Assembly (NCBI GenBank): GCA_000004695.1
Contig: CM000151.3
Span: forward strand, 4,384,001 to 4,448,000
Source of the DNA: Dictyostelium discoideum
Lineage: Eukaryota
Length of the DNA stretch: 64,000 nucleotides
Direction of reading: 5' to 3'
In this document: positions 15,881 to 53,528 of the stretch, piece by piece
How positions within the stretch are numbered: the stretch's first letter is position 1
Layout: each line of letters opens with the position of its first letter
Notes under the pieces: generated by a model
What the model was told of the DNA's origin: nothing
Databases searched by the model: none
The model's input: the letters and a program-made list of their open reading frames with translations, nothing else
Translations under genes and position numbers: made by a program

Positions 15881-15962
15881 GACATCGTAGCAAAGTGGTC
15901 TAATGCGTCTGACTAGAAATCAGATCCCTTCGGGGGCGCAGGTTCGAACCCTGCCGATGTCG
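15881..15962 (+). tRNA. tRNA-Ser (anticodon AGA), 82 nt, with long variable arm.
   Basis: The acceptor stem GACATCG/CGATGTC is a perfect 7 bp, followed by a discriminator G. Anticodon loop CTAGAAA carries anticodon AGA. A long variable arm CCCTTCGGGGG forms a hairpin. T-arm GCAGGTTCGAACCCTGC. The 3' half matches eukaryotic tRNA-Ser-AGA closely. Confidence 0.9.
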
Positions 15963-48127: not shown

Positions 48128-50435
48128 ATGGAATTACAAACTATTCCAAATAATATTAGCCTTGCTAATGGAGATAGTAAAGGTGTTCAACTAACATTTA
48201 AAAATATTGTTTATAAGGTTGATAATAAAAAGTATAAAAAATTAGTTAAAAAACAAGAAAAAGCTAAAAAAAAGAATGACACTGAAAGTTCCACTGGTGA
48301 TATGAATACTGGTGTATCAACAACAATCGAAAAAGAATTAACAATTTTAAATAATGTTAGTGGTGTTATTGAAAAAGGTGAATTAGGTATGTAAATAATT
48401 TTTTTTATCTTCAAAAATTATATTGGTTGTTTTTATCATTTTTTTTTTTTATCTCTGTCCTTTTTTTTTTCTAAACATTTTTTTTTATTTTTTTTTATTT
48501 TCATTTTTAGTTGCATTGATGGGACCATCAGGTTCAGGTAAATCAACTTTATTGGATATTTTAGCACAACGTAAATCAACTGGTAAAATAACTGGTCAAT
48601 TATTAGTTAATGGTAAAGAAATTGGTGAAGCTTACAAAAAGGTAATTTTCAATTTTTTTTTTTTTTTTATTATTTTTTTTTTTTTTGTCTGCTTTAATTA
48701 TTAATTGTTGAATAAAAAAATTTTATTTTTTAATTTAGTATTGTAGTTATGTTACACAAGAAGATGTTTTATTACAAACTTCAACTGTATTTGAAACATT
48801 AAAATTTTATGCTGATTTAAAACTTCCAGGTGTTTCTGAAATTGAAAAAATTAAAAGAGTTGAACAAATTATTGAAGATATTGGTTTAACAAAGAGAACT
48901 CATTCAAAGATTGGTGGTGTTTTACCAGGTGGTATTTTAATGAAAGGTTTATCAGGTGGTGAAAAACGTAGAGTATGTAATTAGTTATTATTTAAATAAA
49001 ATTTAAAAGTTTTAAATTATTAATAATATATATATATTTTTAAAAATATTAAAAGGTTAGTATTGGTTGTGGTTTAGTTACAAATCCAAGTTTAATATTT
49101 TTAGATGAACCAACAAGTGGTTTAGATTCAGTTGCAGCATTACAAATTATGAAAACATTATTAAATTTAACATTAAAAGGTGTTACAGTAATTTGTAGTA
49201 TCCATCAACCACGTCCTGAAATTTTTGCATTATTTAATAAAGTAATGGTAATTATTAAAGGTAAAATGATTTATAGTGGTAGTAATATTTTGGAATATTT
49301 TGAATCATTAGGTTATCCATGTCCAAATAATACAAATCCAGCAGATTTTTGTTTAGATTCAGCAGTTGAAATTGGTGAAGGTGAACGTTATACTGAAATT
49401 TGTAATCAATGGCAAAAGATTTGGGAGAATGAATTATTGAATGAGATTGAATATCCACCAGTGAATGTAGAGAAACCAAAAACTGCATCATGGGGATACC
49501 AATATTGGATTCTATTAGGTAGAACATGGAAAGATTTCCTACGTAACCAAGGTAATTTCGTAGCAAGAGTTGGTACCGCAGTGGTTACTGGTTTATTATT
49601 TGGTGTTTGTTTTGCAGGTTTAAAAGAGACTGAAGCTGATGTTCAAAAGATTTTAGGTACAATTTTCTTTTTAATTACTGGTTTAAATTTAACACCTTTC
49701 GCAGTGATTTCATTATTCCTTTCTGGTAGAACTCTTTTCAACGCCGAGAGAGCTTCTAAAATTTACCATTCTTTCCCATACTATATGGCGATGGTAACTG
49801 TGGAAACTTTAATTGTATTTTTGGTCGCATTGATTAATGCAGCAATTTGTTATTTATTCGCTCATTTACGTTGGACTGCTGGTCACTTTTTCTTTGCAAT
49901 TATGGTTTATTTCTTTGTTCATTTACTCTCTGATTTTATGATTTCAACAATTGCTAATTTAACTGGTACTAGTGATATGACTTTTGCTTATGGAAGTATG
50001 TATTGAATTTAATCATCTCTAAAAATAATATTTAAATTTTATTTACCTTTGGTACTAACTTTTTATTAAATTTTAAAAATAGGTGGGCTTTCTGTAATTT
50101 ATATGTTATTTGCAGGTTTTTACGTGCCAACAAATGAATTACCAAAATCATTTGGTTGGTTACATTGGGTTAATCCACTTTTTTATTCATTTGTTTCTCT
50201 TGTTGTAAATCAATTTGAAGATTTACCTTTAGAATGTACAAGACCAAATATCCCGGTTGGAAATTCTACTATTCAAATACCATGTCAATTTAGTAATGGA
50301 AATCAAGTTATTGAATATTATGGTATAGATGATTGGACAAGAGGTAGTTCATTTGGTGTTGTTGTTGCATGGACTGTTTTCTTTTTCTGGACTTCATACC
50401 TTGCATTACACTTTTTAAACAAAGAAAAGAGATAA
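48128..50435 (+). CDS. abcG: ABC transporter G-family half-transporter (NBD-TMD, White-like). Five exons: 48128..48386, 48511..48641, 48739..48972, 49056..49995, 50083..50435.
   Basis: Walker A ([17 protein letters not shown]), ABC signature [12 protein letters not shown], Walker B ([12 protein letters not shown]), an H-loop (CSIHQPR), then an ABC2-type six-helix TMD. GTATGT/GTAATT donors and AG acceptors all join in phase. Exon joins verified: ELG|VALMG, AYKK|YCSYV, EKRR|VSIGCG, AYGS|GLSVIYM. Confidence 0.85.
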
Positions 50436-50459
50436 AAAAAAAATTAATTAAAATATTAA

Positions 50460-50516
<57 letters not shown>

Positions 50517-51027
50517 CCATCAACATCAGTATAAAAAATTAATAATAATTATTTTCAAAGTGGCCATCTTGACTTTCACTAATAACAAAATATTTTTTGT
50601 GAAAAGGTTGTGGTTTAAGGGTATTTTTGTCGATAAGTAACCAAATCGATTAATTTTTTTTTAAAAAAAAAAAAAAAAAAAAAAATAAAATTTTCATTTT
50701 CTCAAAAAAATTTTTTTTTCTTAGAAATCTAATCTTAAAAAAAAAAAAATTAATTTTGGGGATAAATGATCAATTTTACAAAAAAAAAAAAAAAAAAAAA
50801 CAACAGATTGTGTGTGATTAGTTTTATTATAATTTTAATATTAAAATAATGGGGATAAAATTTTATATATATGAAAATTTAAAAAAGTGCACTATTTTAT
50901 TTATAATTCCCCACATCAGTATATTTTCTAAATAAGCTTGATCGGTTTACAAAAAACCATGTTCAATCTAAATATATATTTTTTTTTTTTTTTTTTTTAA
51001 ATAAATAAAAAATTCTTAAATTTTAAG

Positions 51028-51076
<49 letters not shown>

Positions 51077-51256
51077 AAAAATATAAAAATAGAATAAAAT
51101 CTTTTTTAATCACTAATTAATATTTTTATTTTAAAAAAATATAAAAATATATTTTTTATATTAATTTTAAATAATATATAAAATAATTAAATTTTTGAAT
51201 TAAAAAAAAAAAAAAAATTTGAAATTAAGAATTTGTTTAATTAATAGATTGAAAAA

Positions 51257-53528
51257 ATGGAGTTGGAAACAATAGAATATAATAAAAGTTTTAATATTTG
51301 CGAAAATGGAGATAGTAAAGGTGTTCAACTTACATTTAAAAATATATCTTATAAGGTAGAAAATAAAAATTATAATAAAAATAAAAAAGAAAAAAATAAA
51401 AATAAAATTGATCCAGAATTTGTTAACCTAGATAATAAAACAGAGAATTCAAATGAAAAAGAAATTACTATTCTATATAATGTTGGTGGTGTTATTGAAA
51501 AAGGAGAATTAGGTAAGTAAATAATTAATTGATTTTTTTTTCTTTTGAAAATGATTTTTATATCTATCCTTTTTTTTTTTTTTTTTTTTTTTTTTATTTT
51601 TATAAACTTTTTTTTTTTTTTTCTAAACTTTTTTTTTTATTTTTTTTTTTTTATTTTTATTTTTAGTTGCATTGATGGGACCATCAGGTTCAGGTAAATC
51701 AACTTTATTGGATATTTTAGCACAACGTAAATCAACTGGTAAAATAACTGGTCAATTATTAGTTAATGGTAAAGAAATTGGTGAAGCTTACAAAAAGGTG
51801 ATTTTTTTTTTTTTTTTTTTCGTCTATTTAAAATTAATTACTAATTGTCGATTAAAAATTTTTATTTTTTAATTTAGTATTGTAGTTATGTTACACAAGA
51901 AGATGTTTTATTACAAACTTACACTGTATTTGAAACATTAAAATTTTATGCTGATTTAAAACTTCCAGGTGTTTCTGAAATTGAAAAAATTAAAAGAGTT
52001 GAAAAAGTAATTGAGGATGTAGGTTTAACATTGAAAAGAGATTCAAGGGTTGGTGGGGTTTTGGCAGGAGGAGTTGCTGTTACTGGTTTATCAGGTGGTG
52101 AAAAACGTAGAGTATGTATTAAACAAATAGTTAATCATTATAAATCATAATTAACAATTTTTTTTATTTTTTTTTAATTAATTTTTTTTAAAAGGTTAGT
52201 ATTGGTTGTGGTTTAATTACAAATCCAAGTTTAATATTTTTAGATGAACCAACAAGTGGTTTAGATTCAGTTGCAGCATTACAAATTATGAAAACATTAT
52301 TAAATTTAACATTAAAAGGTGTTACAGTAATTTGTAGTATCCATCAACCACGTCCTGAAATTTTTCAATTAATTAATAAAGTAATGGTAATTATTAAAGG
52401 TAAAATGATATATAGTGGTAGTAATATTTTGGAATATTTTGAATCATTAGGTTACCCATGTCCAAATAATACAAATCCAGCAGATTTTTGTTTAGATTCA
52501 GCAGTTGAAATTGGTGAAGGTGAACGTTATACTGAAATTTGTAATCAATGGGAAAATAAATGGGAGAATCAACTAACTAATGAAATTGAATATCCATCTT
52601 TGAATGTTGATATTCCAAAAACAACTTCATGGGTATACCAATATTGGATTCTCCTAAATAGAGAATGGAGAGGATTTATTAGAAATAAAGGAAATGCATT
52701 ATCAAGAGTAATCACAGGTATGTACATTTATATTAATTTTTATTTTAATAAAATCCAATAATAAAATTATTAATATTAAATTGAAATATAGCAATTGTTA
52801 TTGGAGCACTTTTTGGATCGTGTTTTGCAGGTCTTAAAGAATCAGATGCAGATGTTCAAAAAATTATGGGTACACTTTTCTTTTTAACCACTGGTTTAAT
52901 GTTATCACCATTTTCAATGATTACTCTTTTCCTTTCAGGTAGACAATTGTTCAATTCAGAGAGAGCTTCAAAAATATATCATTCTTTTCCTTATTTTTTA
53001 TCAATGATTACTGTTGAACTAACGATTGAATTCTTTGTAACATTGGTAGAAGTAACAGTTTGTTATATGTTGGCTCGTTTGAGGATGGATGCCGGTAGAT
53101 TTTTCTTTGCTGTTTTAGTATACAGTTTTATTCACTCACTTTCAACCTTTTTTATTAGTTCATTAGCTAATTTGACTGGTACAAGTGATTTAACATTCTC
53201 ATATGCTTCTTCATTAAGTGTTGTTTTCATGCTATTTGCAGGTTTTTATGTTCCTACAAATGAATTACCAAGAGCATTTGGATGGCTTCATTGGGTCAAC
53301 CCAGCATTTTATGGTTATTCTTCAGTTGTAATAAATCAATTTGAAGATTTACAATTAAAGTGTACAGATGAACCATGCAAGTTTACCAATGGAAATCAAG
53401 TTATTGAATATTATGGAATTGAAGATTGGACAAGAGGTGGATCATTTGGAGTTTTGGTAGCTTGGGCAACATTTTTTTATTCATTAAGTTATTTTGCATT
53501 GCACTTTTTACACAGAGAAAAAAGATGA
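51257..53528 (+). CDS. abcG: ABC transporter G-family half-transporter, a tandem paralog of 48128..50435. Five exons: 51257..51512, 51667..51797, 51878..52111, 52195..52717, 52792..53528.
   Basis: Same motif set as the upstream paralog. Exons 2-4 are (near-)identical to it at nucleotide level. The last intron sits at a different position (RVITG|AIVIG), and this gene lacks the paralog's intron at AYGS|GLSV. Confidence 0.85.

What the first reader, a model, noticed from the sequence alone, without database searches (positions are those of the whole stretch)
48128..53528. Tandem ABCG half-transporter paralogs with a gene-conversion mosaic and non-shared intron positions
Two head-to-tail ABCG genes lie 820 bp apart. 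Exon 2 is 131/131 nt identical between the copies. Exon 3 is identical for ~140 nt and then diverges. Exon 4 is near-identical for ~330 nt, and flanking intron sequence is similar too. Exon 1 and the TMD-encoding 3' halves are clearly diverged. This block-wise identity points to recent gene conversion of the NBD-encoding middle, not to simple duplication age. Copy 1 has an intron at AYGS|GLSV that copy 2 lacks. Copy 2 has an intron at RVITG|AIVIG that copy 1 lacks. This looks like a pair of recent intron gain/loss events visible directly in paralogs.
Basis: seen in the sequence. Interest (0 to 1): 0.55.

Follow-up and report, generated by a model that had tools for sequence, protein, structure and literature searches.

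The report
Gene conversion between tandem abcG12/abcG8 genes

Summary
The window is D. discoideum AX4 chromosome 2, and the two genes are abcG12 (48128-50435) and abcG8 (51257-53528), head-to-tail and 821 bp apart. Paralogue synonymous divergence (dS) is 0.02-0.03 in two blocks (codons 85-172 and 200-327). It is 0.6-1.1 elsewhere, including an 81-nt island (codons 173-199) between the blocks. Orthologue dS in the two blocks is normal, so constraint does not explain the pattern. Eight other assemblies carry the same tandem pair. The flanks and the island give clean G12 and G8 clades (97-100% bootstrap). The two blocks group paralogues by species or strain (orthology 0-1%). Tract extent differs by lineage and even among D. 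discoideum isolates. I conclude recurrent, short-patch interlocus gene conversion on genomic DNA, confined to the NBD exons. The island holds 11 fixed paralogue-specific residues in 27 codons.

Both non-shared introns are real. Seven outgroup genes lack them, which favours gain after duplication. The abcG8 intron is in all eight discoideum-clade taxa sampled, so it is not recent. The abcG12 intron was precisely lost in one cryptic discoideum-clade isolate and is absent in D. firmibasis. D. firmibasis abcG8 has a different intron in the same codon, 1 nt away.

Known mechanism, locus apparently undescribed; moderate interest.

The parts
48128..50435 (+). abcG12 (ABC transporter G family member 12; NBD-TMD half-transporter, 638 aa). 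Exons 48128-48386, 48511-48641, 48739-48972, 49056-49995, 50083-50435.
   Evidence: GT-AG model translates exactly to XP_644137/Q8T685. Pfam ABC_tran 74-229 and ABC2_membrane 356-566. Walker A, Q-loop, LSGGE, Walker B and H-loop intact.
51257..53528 (+). abcG8 (ABC transporter G family member 8; 626 aa). Exons 51257-51512, 51667-51797, 51878-52111, 52195-52717, 52792-53528.
   Evidence: Model translates exactly to XP_644138/Q86HQ2. The independently deposited AbcG8 AAL91493 has the same length and 2 substitutions. Pfam as for abcG12.
48478..48864 (+). Conversion zone B in abcG12: 3' end of intron 1, exon 2, intron 2 (only partly homogenised in AX4), and the first 126 nt of exon 3 (codons 85-172). 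Partner in abcG8: 51634-52003.
   Evidence: Paralogue dS 0.017 against ~0.95 in the flanks. Exon 2 is 131/131 identical. Repeat family D10 is 96%. Paralogues group by lineage; the D. firmibasis pair are sisters at 100% bootstrap.
48865..48945 (+). Conversion-resistant island C in abcG12 (codons 173-199, the segment just upstream of the LSGGE signature). Partner in abcG8: 52004-52084.
   Evidence: Paralogue dS 0.71 and dN 0.37. G12 and G8 monophyly 100%. 11 fixed paralogue-specific residues in 27 codons, the densest in the protein, and invariant in all eight G12.
48973..49055 (+). Intron 3 of abcG12 (partner in abcG8: 52112-52194). It lies between converted exon sequence but is not converted.
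   Evidence: Orthologue identity among close relatives (AX4, R, W, cfDisY) is 81-99% for G12 and 77-92% for G8; paralogue identity 63-74%, against a shuffle background of 69%.
49056..49412 (+). Conversion zone D in abcG12: the first 357 nt of exon 4. With the last 27 nt of exon 3 (48946-48972) this makes codons 200-327. Partner in abcG8: 52195-52551 (plus 52085-52111).
   Evidence: 351/357 identical. dS 0.025. D7 is 98% over 300 nt. Orthology bootstrap 0-1%; discoideum-complex sequences of both paralogues form one clade at 83%. V216I stays fixed in all taxa; G8-type residues at codons 266 and 268 (Q/E and I) persist in most.
49996..50082 (+). abcG12-specific intron 4 (87 nt, phase 1 in Ser-522 codon A|GT).
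   Evidence: GT...AG; stop codons on read-through. Present in AX4, R, W, cfDisY, D. citrinum and D. dimigraforme. Absent with exact exon junction in cfDisZ and D. firmibasis. Absent in all abcG8 orthologues except for a nearby intron in D. firmibasis, and absent in seven outgroup genes.
52718..52791 (+). abcG8-specific intron 4 (74 nt, phase 1, ACA G|CA, RVIT|AIVIG).
   Evidence: GT...AG; frameshift or stops on read-through. Same position and phase in all eight abcG8 orthologues, with lengths of 66-74 nt. Absent from all abcG12 and all seven outgroup genes.
50436..51256 (+). 821-bp intergenic spacer between the paralogues. AT-rich, with poly(A) runs at 50461-50513 and 51028-51074, and not duplicated.
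   Evidence: Sequence. The 5' and 3' flanks of the two genes align only at background identity.

Best explanation
abcG12 and abcG8 are an old tandem duplicate pair of ABCG half-transporter genes. The duplication predates the common ancestor of D. discoideum, D. citrinum, D. dimigraforme and D. firmibasis. Homologous-recombination repair repeatedly uses the neighbouring paralogue, 3.1 kb away, as template, which is non-allelic (interlocus) gene conversion. It copies short patches of roughly 100-400 bp of genomic DNA between the copies. Conversion is confined to the NBD-coding exons 2-4. These are the parts still similar enough to pair, and each event restores the identity that allows the next one. 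It stops at sequence that has diverged too far: exon 1, intron 3, the linker and TMD half, and an 81-nt island upstream of the ABC signature motif. That island is packed with fixed paralogue-specific residues and is probably kept apart by selection. The direction is mostly G12 to G8, but both directions occur. The two non-shared introns most likely arose after the duplication, one in each paralogue. The 3'-most intron of abcG12 was later deleted precisely in at least one lineage, as expected for recombination with a spliced cDNA. Shown: the mosaic, its lineage specificity, the phylogenetic incongruence, intron presence and absence, and one precise loss. Inferred: the molecular mechanism, selection on the island, and gain rather than multiple loss.
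For: (1) Paralogue dS is 0.017 and 0.025 in blocks B and D, and 0.63-1.13 in blocks A, C, E, F and G. (2) There is no cold spot or synonymous constraint. AX4 versus other discoideum-clade orthologues gives dS 0.05-0.10 in B+D and 0.05-0.15 elsewhere. AX4-versus-D. firmibasis orthologue dS in B+D is 0.24-0.32, more than ten times the within-AX4 paralogue value. (3) The tandem pair is present in eight other assemblies. G12 and G8 are each monophyletic at 97-100% in A, C and E-G, but at 0-1% in B and D. (4) Tracts are lineage-specific. Block B paralogue dS is 0.00 in D. firmibasis, 0.02 in AX4, 0.07/0.11 in isolates R/W, 0.20 in the two cf. discoideum, 0.38 in D. citrinum and 0.54 in D. dimigraforme. 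Block D is 0.03-0.04 in the discoideum complex and 0.20-0.32 in the other three. (5) Private substitutions are shared by both paralogues of one strain or species. (6) Genomic DNA is the substrate. D. firmibasis G12 and G8 introns 2 are nearly identical to each other and unlike the discoideum type, and isolates R/W share an identical internal patch of intron 2. (7) Direction: D. dimigraforme G8 keeps a strongly diverged exon 2 (17/131 differences) while all G12 are alike. AX4 G8 has lost three G8-diagnostic exon-3 sites that other discoideum-clade G8 retain. (8) Island C has 11 fixed differences in 27 codons and is invariant in G12. (9) Introns at 383/ph1 and 522/ph1 are absent from D. purpureum x2, P. 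violaceum x2, H. album, T. lacteum and the 745-aa sister clade. cfDisZ nests in the discoideum complex at 100% bootstrap yet lacks the 522 intron, with an exact junction.
Against: No conversion event was observed directly; everything is comparative. Double reciprocal crossovers would leave the same pattern. For deep comparisons, orthologue dS in B+D is about half that of the rest of the gene, so some extra synonymous constraint, or conversion-driven slowing, exists in these blocks. Selection on island C is inferred only from fixed differences. A passive barrier (too diverged to pair) fits equally well. In AX4, exons 2 and 3 are ~100% identical while intron 2 between them keeps paralogue-specific sequence. 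This requires at least two separate very short tracts or patchy mismatch repair. Intron gain rests on parsimony over seven outgroup genes; no source sequence was found, and intron loss is known to be frequent in Dictyostelium (PMC4683709). No transcript data were available to me for AX4.
Confidence: 0.9

Rival explanations
1. There is no conversion. The NBD exons are simply under very strong purifying selection, codon-usage constraint or a low mutation rate, so the old duplicates stayed identical there.
For: The blocks encode the most conserved part of ABC proteins (Walker A to H-loop). GC3 is lower in the blocks than elsewhere (0.05-0.08 against 0.15-0.19). Deep orthologue dS there is about half that of the rest.
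Against: Synonymous sites are homogenised (dS 0.02 against ~0.95). Orthologues diverge normally in the same blocks. Paralogues share lineage-private synonymous changes. Block trees group by species. Intron 2 is homogenised in D. firmibasis.
Confidence: 0.02
2. The identical blocks are an assembly artefact: collapse or chimerism of two diverged copies, or of one gene, in the AX4 reference.
For: AX4 has the most extreme identity in block B, and AT-rich repeats make Dictyostelium hard to assemble.
Against: Both AX4 proteins are found residue-for-residue in a second D. discoideum assembly (KAM9945257/8). Eight further assemblies show the same two-gene mosaic; the D. discoideum, cf. discoideum, D. 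citrinum, D. dimigraforme and D. firmibasis ones appear to come from the Nanopore+Illumina projects PMC12745789 and PMC11193728. The same diagnostic differences (S145Y in seven of eight taxa, V216I in all, G8-type residues at 266/268 in most) sit inside the tracts, between distinct introns. A collapse would not preserve them.
Confidence: 0.02
3. The duplication is recent, and the ends (exon 1, island C, TMD half) have diverged fast under positive selection.
For: dN/dS is highest in island C (~0.5).
Against: The ends have saturated synonymous divergence (dS 0.6-1.1). They form separate G12 and G8 clades that each contain all eight taxa, so the duplication is older than the speciation events. 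Positive selection does not raise dS.
Confidence: 0.02
4. Homogenisation occurs through spliced cDNA (reverse-transcript-mediated conversion) rather than between the genomic copies. That would explain why exons are identical while intron 3 and part of intron 2 are not.
For: In AX4, exon identity is 98-100% but intron 3 is at background and intron 2 is partly diverged. cDNA-mediated recombination is the favoured model for Dictyostelium intron loss (PMC4683709).
Against: All three introns in the converted zone are retained in every taxon; cDNA conversion spanning an exon junction would delete them. Intron 2 is itself homogenised in D. firmibasis and in isolates R/W. The similarity extends into the 3' ends of introns 1 and 2 in AX4.
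Confidence: 0.03
5. For the introns: both non-shared introns are ancestral and were lost differentially (383 from abcG12, 522 from abcG8), rather than gained after duplication.
For: Precise intron loss is common in D. discoideum: 441 losses against 40 putative gains (PMC4683709). The 522 intron was demonstrably lost in cfDisZ. D. firmibasis abcG8 has an intron in the same codon as the abcG12 intron.
Against: It needs at least six independent losses for each intron across the outgroups (D. purpureum clade, 745-aa clade, P. violaceum, H. album, T. lacteum, plus the other paralogue), against one gain. The D. firmibasis G8 intron is in phase 2, not phase 1, and shows no sequence similarity to the G12 intron (z up to 2.2).
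Confidence: 0.2

Closest known systems
Interlocus (non-allelic) gene conversion between tandem duplicates, e.g. human gamma-globin HBG1/HBG2 and primate red/green opsin genes (from my own knowledge of the literature; not retrieved here)
   Same: Closely spaced, same-orientation paralogues. Patchwise identity at synonymous sites. Paralogues group by species inside tracts and by gene outside. Tract ends fall at diverged or low-complexity sequence. A few functionally diagnostic residues survive inside converted sequence, as with the opsin spectral-tuning sites.
   Different: A different gene family and a haploid amoebozoan host. Here an intron inside the converted zone (intron 3) stays fully orthologous. 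Tract extent differs even among natural isolates of one species.
Human ABCG5/ABCG8 adjacent half-transporter pair (structures 5do7, 7r87 etc.)
   Same: Two ABCG half-transporters encoded side by side. Same NBD-TMD architecture. E ~1e-55 to 1e-57 to abcG12.
   Different: ABCG5/G8 are head-to-head, deeply diverged, functionally asymmetric obligate heterodimer partners (my knowledge). abcG12/abcG8 are head-to-tail, both keep all canonical ATPase motifs, and have near-identical NBD cores. Whether they heterodimerise is unknown.
Reverse-transcriptase-mediated precise intron loss in Dictyostelium (Ma et al. 2015, PMC4683709)
   Same: Exact excision of the 3'-most intron of abcG12 in cfDisZ, with the flanking exon sequence unchanged. 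This matches the 3'-biased precise losses described there.
   Different: Here it is seen as a presence/absence difference between very close relatives (cryptic discoideum-clade species), not between D. discoideum and D. purpureum. This gene pair was not found in that paper's supplements under the names and guessed gene IDs I searched.
Putative lineage-specific intron gains in D. discoideum (40 reported, source found for 2; PMC4683709)
   Same: Introns absent in all outgroups examined, with no identifiable source sequence.
   Different: The gains here are dated by a paralogue pair. One site (codon 522) carries two different introns, 1 nt apart, in the two paralogues of different species.

Membership tests
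ABCG (White/PDR-type) half-transporter | Reverse domain order: one N-terminal NBD followed by one ABC-2 type TMD | tested here: met
   Pfam ABC_tran at 74-229 and ABC2_membrane at 356-566 in abcG12; 75-228 and 355-565 in abcG8.
ABCG (White/PDR-type) half-transporter | Intact ATPase motifs: Walker A, Q-loop, signature, Walker B, H-loop | tested here: met
   [24 protein letters not shown] and SIHQP found in both proteins.
ABCG (White/PDR-type) half-transporter | Closest solved relatives are ABCG/PDR proteins | tested here: met
   Cdr1 9.6e-86, Pdr5 8.6e-82, ABCG2 2.9e-71, ABCG5/G8 ~1e-55.
ABCG (White/PDR-type) half-transporter | Functions as a homo- or heterodimeric exporter; substrate | not testable with these tools
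   No functional data found. Neither gene is mentioned in PMC3743828.
Interlocus gene conversion / concerted evolution | The duplication is older than the speciation events compared | tested here: met
   G12 and G8 clades each contain all eight taxa at 97-100% bootstrap in unconverted blocks. Flank dS is ~1.
Interlocus gene conversion / concerted evolution | Paralogue divergence at silent sites is far lower in the tract than in the flanks | tested here: met
   dS 0.02 against 0.95; Fisher P = 7e-25; permutation 0/20,000.
Interlocus gene conversion / concerted evolution | In the tract, paralogues group by species (phylogenetic incongruence) | tested here: met
   Orthology support 0-1% in B and D. 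D. firmibasis pair 100% in B. Discoideum-complex clade of both paralogues 83% in D.
Interlocus gene conversion / concerted evolution | Not explained by constraint or low mutation rate: orthologue silent divergence is normal in the tract | tested here: met
   Orthologue dS in B+D is 0.05-0.10 against 0.05-0.15 elsewhere for close taxa, and 0.20-0.47 for distant taxa.
Interlocus gene conversion / concerted evolution | Non-reciprocal transfer observed directly (donor unchanged) | not testable with these tools
   Needs pedigree, mutation-accumulation or population data.
Precise (cDNA-mediated) intron loss | Exact removal of the intron with exon sequence intact, in a lineage nested among intron-bearing relatives | tested here: met
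   The cfDisZ G12 junction GGAA^GTGGAC is identical to the spliced product of its relatives. cfDisZ lies inside the discoideum complex at 100%.
Precise (cDNA-mediated) intron loss | Involvement of a reverse-transcribed mRNA | not testable with these tools
   Only the 3'-most position of the lost intron is consistent with it (n = 1).
Bona fide intron gain (criteria of Logsdon et al., as quoted in PMC4683709) | Absence in all outgroups on a clear phylogeny | tested here: met
   383/ph1, 522/ph1 and 522/ph2 are absent in seven outgroup genes from five lineages. The D. purpureum copies are co-orthologues rather than 1:1 orthologues.
Bona fide intron gain (criteria of Logsdon et al., as quoted in PMC4683709) | Identified source sequence of the new intron | tested here: not met
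   BLAST against the window and 12 loci gave only AT-rich low-complexity hits. Whole genomes could not be searched.

The most novel reading that the evidence does not exclude
Codon 522 (Ser, just before the last TMD segments) is a recurrent intron-insertion site. abcG12 acquired a phase-1 intron there, and D. firmibasis abcG8 independently acquired a phase-2 intron 1 nt away. Each event comes with a switch of the Ser codon from the TCN of all intron-less outgroups to AGY. Boundary microhomology (GT...GT in abcG12, AG...AG in D. firmibasis abcG8) makes both compatible with insertion at the same dinucleotide. The same TCN-to-AGT switch sits next to the clade-specific 209/phase-0 intron. If real, these would be sequence footprints of the intron-gain mechanism, caught in very closely related, genetically tractable species that also carry intron presence/absence variation. 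Separately, NBD homogenisation with a protected island might reflect selection on a G12/G8 heterodimer.
Probability: 0.2. Interest if true: 0.65.

Novelty: new member of a known kind. Interest (0 to 1): 0.4.

Why it matters
Mechanistically this is textbook concerted evolution, so it changes no concepts. It still has three practical uses. First, trees or dating of Dictyostelium ABCG genes built on the NBD will be wrong for this pair. They would make the duplicates look recent, when the TMD shows them to be older than the discoideum-citrinum-dimigraforme-firmibasis radiation. Second, the locus is a compact natural system for measuring tract length, direction and barriers of ectopic conversion in a haploid, genetically tractable eukaryote. 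It is 5.4 kb, has two zones, an internal island and an excluded intron, and its tracts differ among wild isolates. Third, the intron presence/absence differences, and the two different introns in one codon, offer rare near-contemporary material on how introns are gained and lost.

Tried and rejected
(1) Constraint or cold-spot explanation: rejected by orthologue dS. (2) cDNA-mediated homogenisation: considered because intron 3 is not converted; rejected because introns are retained and intron 2 is homogenised in D. firmibasis and isolates R/W. (3) GC-biased gene conversion signature: GC3 is lower, not higher, in converted blocks, so no support. (4) Source sequences for the lineage-specific introns: only low-complexity AT-rich hits in the window and 12 loci. 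(5) Transfer of the D. firmibasis abcG8 intron from abcG12 by micro-conversion: four of eight G12-state diagnostic sites cluster at codons 517-522, but G8-state sites are interspersed, the phase differs, and intron similarity is not significant. Left unresolved. (6) Treating the D. purpureum tandem pair as 1:1 orthologues of G12/G8: rejected, because the four D. purpureum copies cluster together. They were used only as outgroups. (7) Literature: no paper on abcG8/abcG12 conversion. The gene names and three gene IDs I guessed from memory were not found in the supplements of the Dictyostelium intron study. Neither gene is mentioned in the developmental ABC survey. (9) Structure prediction to place island C: not run, because the tool returns no contact information. 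Its placement just upstream of the signature motif, in a stretch that needs gaps against Cdr1, comes from the alignment.

Full report
IDENTITY AND ANATOMY. The window is about 22% G+C with poly(A)/poly(T) spacers and short AT-rich introns. GT-AG gene models built by hand translate residue-for-residue to two Dictyostelium discoideum AX4 proteins on the 8.48-Mb chromosome 2. These are ABC transporter G family member 12 (abcG12, XP_644137/Q8T685, 638 aa; 48128-50435) and member 8 (abcG8, XP_644138/Q86HQ2, 626 aa; 51257-53528). Both are NBD-then-TMD half-transporters: Pfam ABC_tran plus ABC2_membrane, all ATPase motifs intact, and closest solved relatives Cdr1, Pdr5 and ABCG2. They are head-to-tail, 821 bp apart, and each has five exons. 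Introns 1-3 are at shared positions (codon 87 phase 1, 131 phase 0, 209 phase 0). Intron 4 is at codon 522 phase 1 in abcG12 (49996-50082) and at codon 383 phase 1 in abcG8 (52718-52791). An independently deposited AbcG8 protein (AAL91493) has the same length and differs at 2 residues.

Sliding-window and piecewise alignments and an independent repeat finder show the following. Exon 2 is 131/131 identical. Exon 3 is identical over its first 126 nt apart from one dinucleotide, strongly diverged for the next 81 nt, and identical in its last 27 nt. Exon 4 is 351/357 identical at its 5' end. Identity is 60-80% everywhere else, and the flanking intergenic DNA is at background. The longest identical runs (181, 149, 96, 81 nt) exceed the maximum of 74 seen in 20,000 permutations. 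Among degenerate codons for conserved residues, 2/207 differ inside the blocks and 92/257 outside (P = 7e-25). The exon-3 identical stretch is 126 nt, not ~140. The abcG8 junction is RVIT|AIVIG, not RVITG|AIVIG. And 'flanking introns similar' is true only for the 3' ends of introns 1 and 2, since intron 3 matches no better than shuffled sequence.

IT IS GENE CONVERSION, NOT CONSTRAINT OR YOUTH. Nei-Gojobori dS between the AX4 paralogues is 0.017 (codons 85-172, block B) and 0.025 (codons 200-327, block D). It is 0.63-1.13 in exon 1, the 27-codon island C (173-199), the linker and the TMD half. The key control is orthologue divergence in the same codons. AX4 against other discoideum-clade isolates gives dS 0.05-0.10 in B+D and 0.05-0.15 in the rest. 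AX4 against D. firmibasis gives 0.24-0.32 in B+D. Silent sites therefore mutate normally there, and the paralogues inside one genome are more than ten times more alike than the orthologues of species that split after the duplication.

COMPARATIVE TEST. I retrieved the same tandem pair from eight other assemblies: two more D. discoideum isolates, two 'cf. discoideum', D. citrinum, D. dimigraforme, D. firmibasis and D. purpureum. I mapped all exons exactly. The discoideum-, citrinum- and dimigraforme-type assemblies match the project described in PMC12745789, and the D. firmibasis assembly matches PMC11193728. Both projects used de novo Nanopore+Illumina assembly. I did not check accession numbers against those papers. 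Bootstrapped NJ trees per block give abcG12 and abcG8 monophyly of 97-100% in blocks A, C and E-G, and 0-1% in blocks B and D. In B and D the sequences group by lineage: the D. firmibasis pair at 100% in B, and all ten discoideum-complex sequences of both paralogues at 83% in D. Paralogue dS differs by lineage. Block B is 0.00 in D. firmibasis, 0.02 in AX4, 0.07 and 0.11 in isolates R and W, 0.20 in both cf. discoideum, 0.38 in D. citrinum and 0.54 in D. dimigraforme. Block D is 0.03-0.04 across the discoideum complex and 0.20-0.32 in the other three. Site patterns show private substitutions shared by both paralogues of one strain or species. Conversion is therefore recurrent and ongoing, with events younger than the divergence of D. 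discoideum isolates.

MECHANISTIC DETAIL. (a) The substrate is genomic DNA. The D. firmibasis introns 2 are nearly identical between paralogues and unlike the discoideum type. Isolates R and W share an identical internal patch of intron 2 between paralogues, while the AX4 and cfDisY abcG12 copies keep a different version. No intron in the zone has been lost, which argues against cDNA-mediated homogenisation. (b) Tracts are short and patchy. In AX4, exons 2 and 3 are identical but intron 2 between them keeps paralogue-specific sequence. (c) Intron 3 is excluded everywhere. Among close relatives (AX4, R, W, cfDisY) orthologue identity is 81-99% for abcG12 and 77-92% for abcG8, while paralogue identity is 63-74% against a 69% shuffle background. 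Zone D therefore starts at the intron 3/exon 4 boundary. (d) Direction is mostly G12 to G8. All abcG12 exon 2 sequences are alike, whereas D. dimigraforme abcG8 keeps 17/131 differences. AX4 abcG8 has lost three G8-diagnostic exon-3 sites that other discoideum-clade abcG8 retain. The R/W intron-2 patch in abcG12 is G8-type, so transfer goes both ways. (e) Island C carries 11 fixed paralogue-specific residues in 27 codons, or 41 per 100 codons. Blocks B and D carry 0 and 0.8 per 100, and the TMD carries 21-24. Island C is invariant in all eight abcG12. It lies just upstream of the LSGGE signature, in a stretch that needs gaps against Cdr1. Within zone D, V216I is fixed in all taxa. S145Y persists in all but D. 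firmibasis, and G8-type residues at 266 and 268 in most. I infer, but have not shown, that conversion across these residues is selected against, or that island C is now too diverged to pair. Either way it splits the convertible region into two zones. (f) GC3 is lower in the converted blocks (0.05-0.08 against 0.15-0.19), so there is no sign of GC-biased conversion.

THE INTRONS. Both non-shared introns behave as real introns. They have GT-AG ends, 6-17% G+C, lengths that vary between taxa and are not multiples of three, and stops or frameshifts on read-through in almost every taxon. I mapped intron positions in seven outgroup genes: D. purpureum x2, P. violaceum x2, H. album, T. lacteum and the 745-aa sister clade. 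Only 131/phase 0 is widely shared. None has 209/ph0, 383/ph1 or an intron in codon 522. Parsimony therefore favours gains in the discoideum clade: one gain against at least six losses each. The abcG8 intron (383/ph1) is present in all eight abcG8 orthologues, so it is older than that clade and not 'recent'. The abcG12 intron (522/ph1) is present in six taxa but absent, with an exact junction, from cfDisZ and D. firmibasis. Unconverted blocks place cfDisZ inside the discoideum complex (100%) and D. firmibasis basal (80-88%). The cfDisZ state is therefore a precise, recent loss of the 3'-most intron, as in the reverse-transcript model documented for Dictyostelium (PMC4683709). No source sequence was found for any of the introns in the sequence available.

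UNRESOLVED CURIOSITY. D. firmibasis abcG8 alone has a fifth intron (L001 12776-12841, stops on read-through). It lies in the same Ser-522 codon but in phase 2 (AG|C), 1 nt from the abcG12 site (A|GT). All intron-less outgroups and all other abcG8 use TCN for this serine. All abcG12, including the two that lack the intron, and D. firmibasis abcG8 use AGY. Boundary microhomology (GT/GT in abcG12, AG/AG in D. firmibasis abcG8) makes the DNA-level insertion point ambiguous by two nucleotides, so both are compatible with the same dinucleotide. The same TCN-to-AGT switch lies one codon downstream of the clade-specific 209/ph0 intron. Independent gains at a hot spot, an ancestral AGY proto-splice site, a one-nucleotide slide, and a patchy micro-conversion (G12-state sites cluster at codons 517-522 in D. 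firmibasis abcG8) all remain possible.

KNOWN OR NEW. Searches of the open literature found nothing on conversion at this locus or on these two genes' function. The gene names and guessed gene IDs were not found in the supplements of the Dictyostelium intron study. The mechanism itself is classical, so I rate this as a new member of a known kind, with moderate interest. The main added value is the multi-isolate picture of ongoing short-patch conversion with a protected island, together with the intron presence/absence variation.

Noticed in passing
window 49996-50082 and L001:12776-12841: Two different introns in the same Ser-522 codon of the two paralogues: abcG12 A|GT in phase 1, and D. firmibasis abcG8 AG|C in phase 2. 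Every gene that has or had an intron there uses AGY for this Ser, while all intron-less outgroups and the other abcG8 use TCN. Boundary microhomology makes both compatible with one insertion point.
   Followed up: partly
window 48973-49055 / 52112-52194 (intron 3, codon 209 phase 0): This intron is shared by both paralogues in the discoideum clade and absent from all seven outgroup genes. The Ser one codon downstream is AGT in all intron-bearing genes and TCA/TCC in all intron-less ones. The intron lies inside the converted region, so it may have been gained once before the duplication or spread by conversion.
   Followed up: partly
L005:7016-8308 (cf. discoideum 'Z' abcG12): The 3'-most intron of abcG12 is missing with an exact exon junction in one cryptic discoideum-clade isolate, while its closest relatives keep it. 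This is an intron presence/absence difference between very close lineages.
   Followed up: yes
L004:9639-10020 (D. dimigraforme abcG8 intron 2): Intron 2 is 382 nt here, against 62-98 nt in the other taxa. It is swollen by (ATTTTT)n and (AAAT)n microsatellites. The same gene has the least-converted exon 2.
   Followed up: no
L003:7914-8046 and L004:7912-8086 (abcG12 intron 4 in D. citrinum and D. dimigraforme): (AAT)n expansions enlarge this intron to 133 and 175 nt, against 85-87 nt in D. discoideum.
   Followed up: no
window, codons 85-172 and 200-327 of both genes: Third-position G+C is lower in the converted blocks (0.05-0.08) than in the rest of the genes (0.15-0.19). This is the opposite of what GC-biased gene conversion would produce.
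   Followed up: partly
L009:5001-9439 (P. violaceum) and L002:10001-15245 (D. purpureum): The same ABCG subfamily is also tandemly duplicated in P. violaceum, and has four copies in D. purpureum. In each species the copies cluster together in trees, reflecting either independent duplications or concerted evolution there too.
   Followed up: no
window 50461-50513 and 51028-51074: Two uninterrupted poly(A) runs of 53 and 47 nt lie in the 821-bp spacer between the paralogues.
   Followed up: no
L001:13161-15845: In D. firmibasis the next called gene lies ~2.7 kb downstream of abcG8 and is a 601-aa protein without Pfam hits. In the discoideum, citrinum and dimigraforme-clade assemblies, a ~1030-1110-aa gene (SPX/EXS Pfam hits in three of the six) starts ~160-180 nt downstream. 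This may be a local rearrangement or an annotation difference.
   Followed up: no
window 15881-15962: A tRNA-Ser(AGA) gene, the only tRNA in the window.
   Followed up: no
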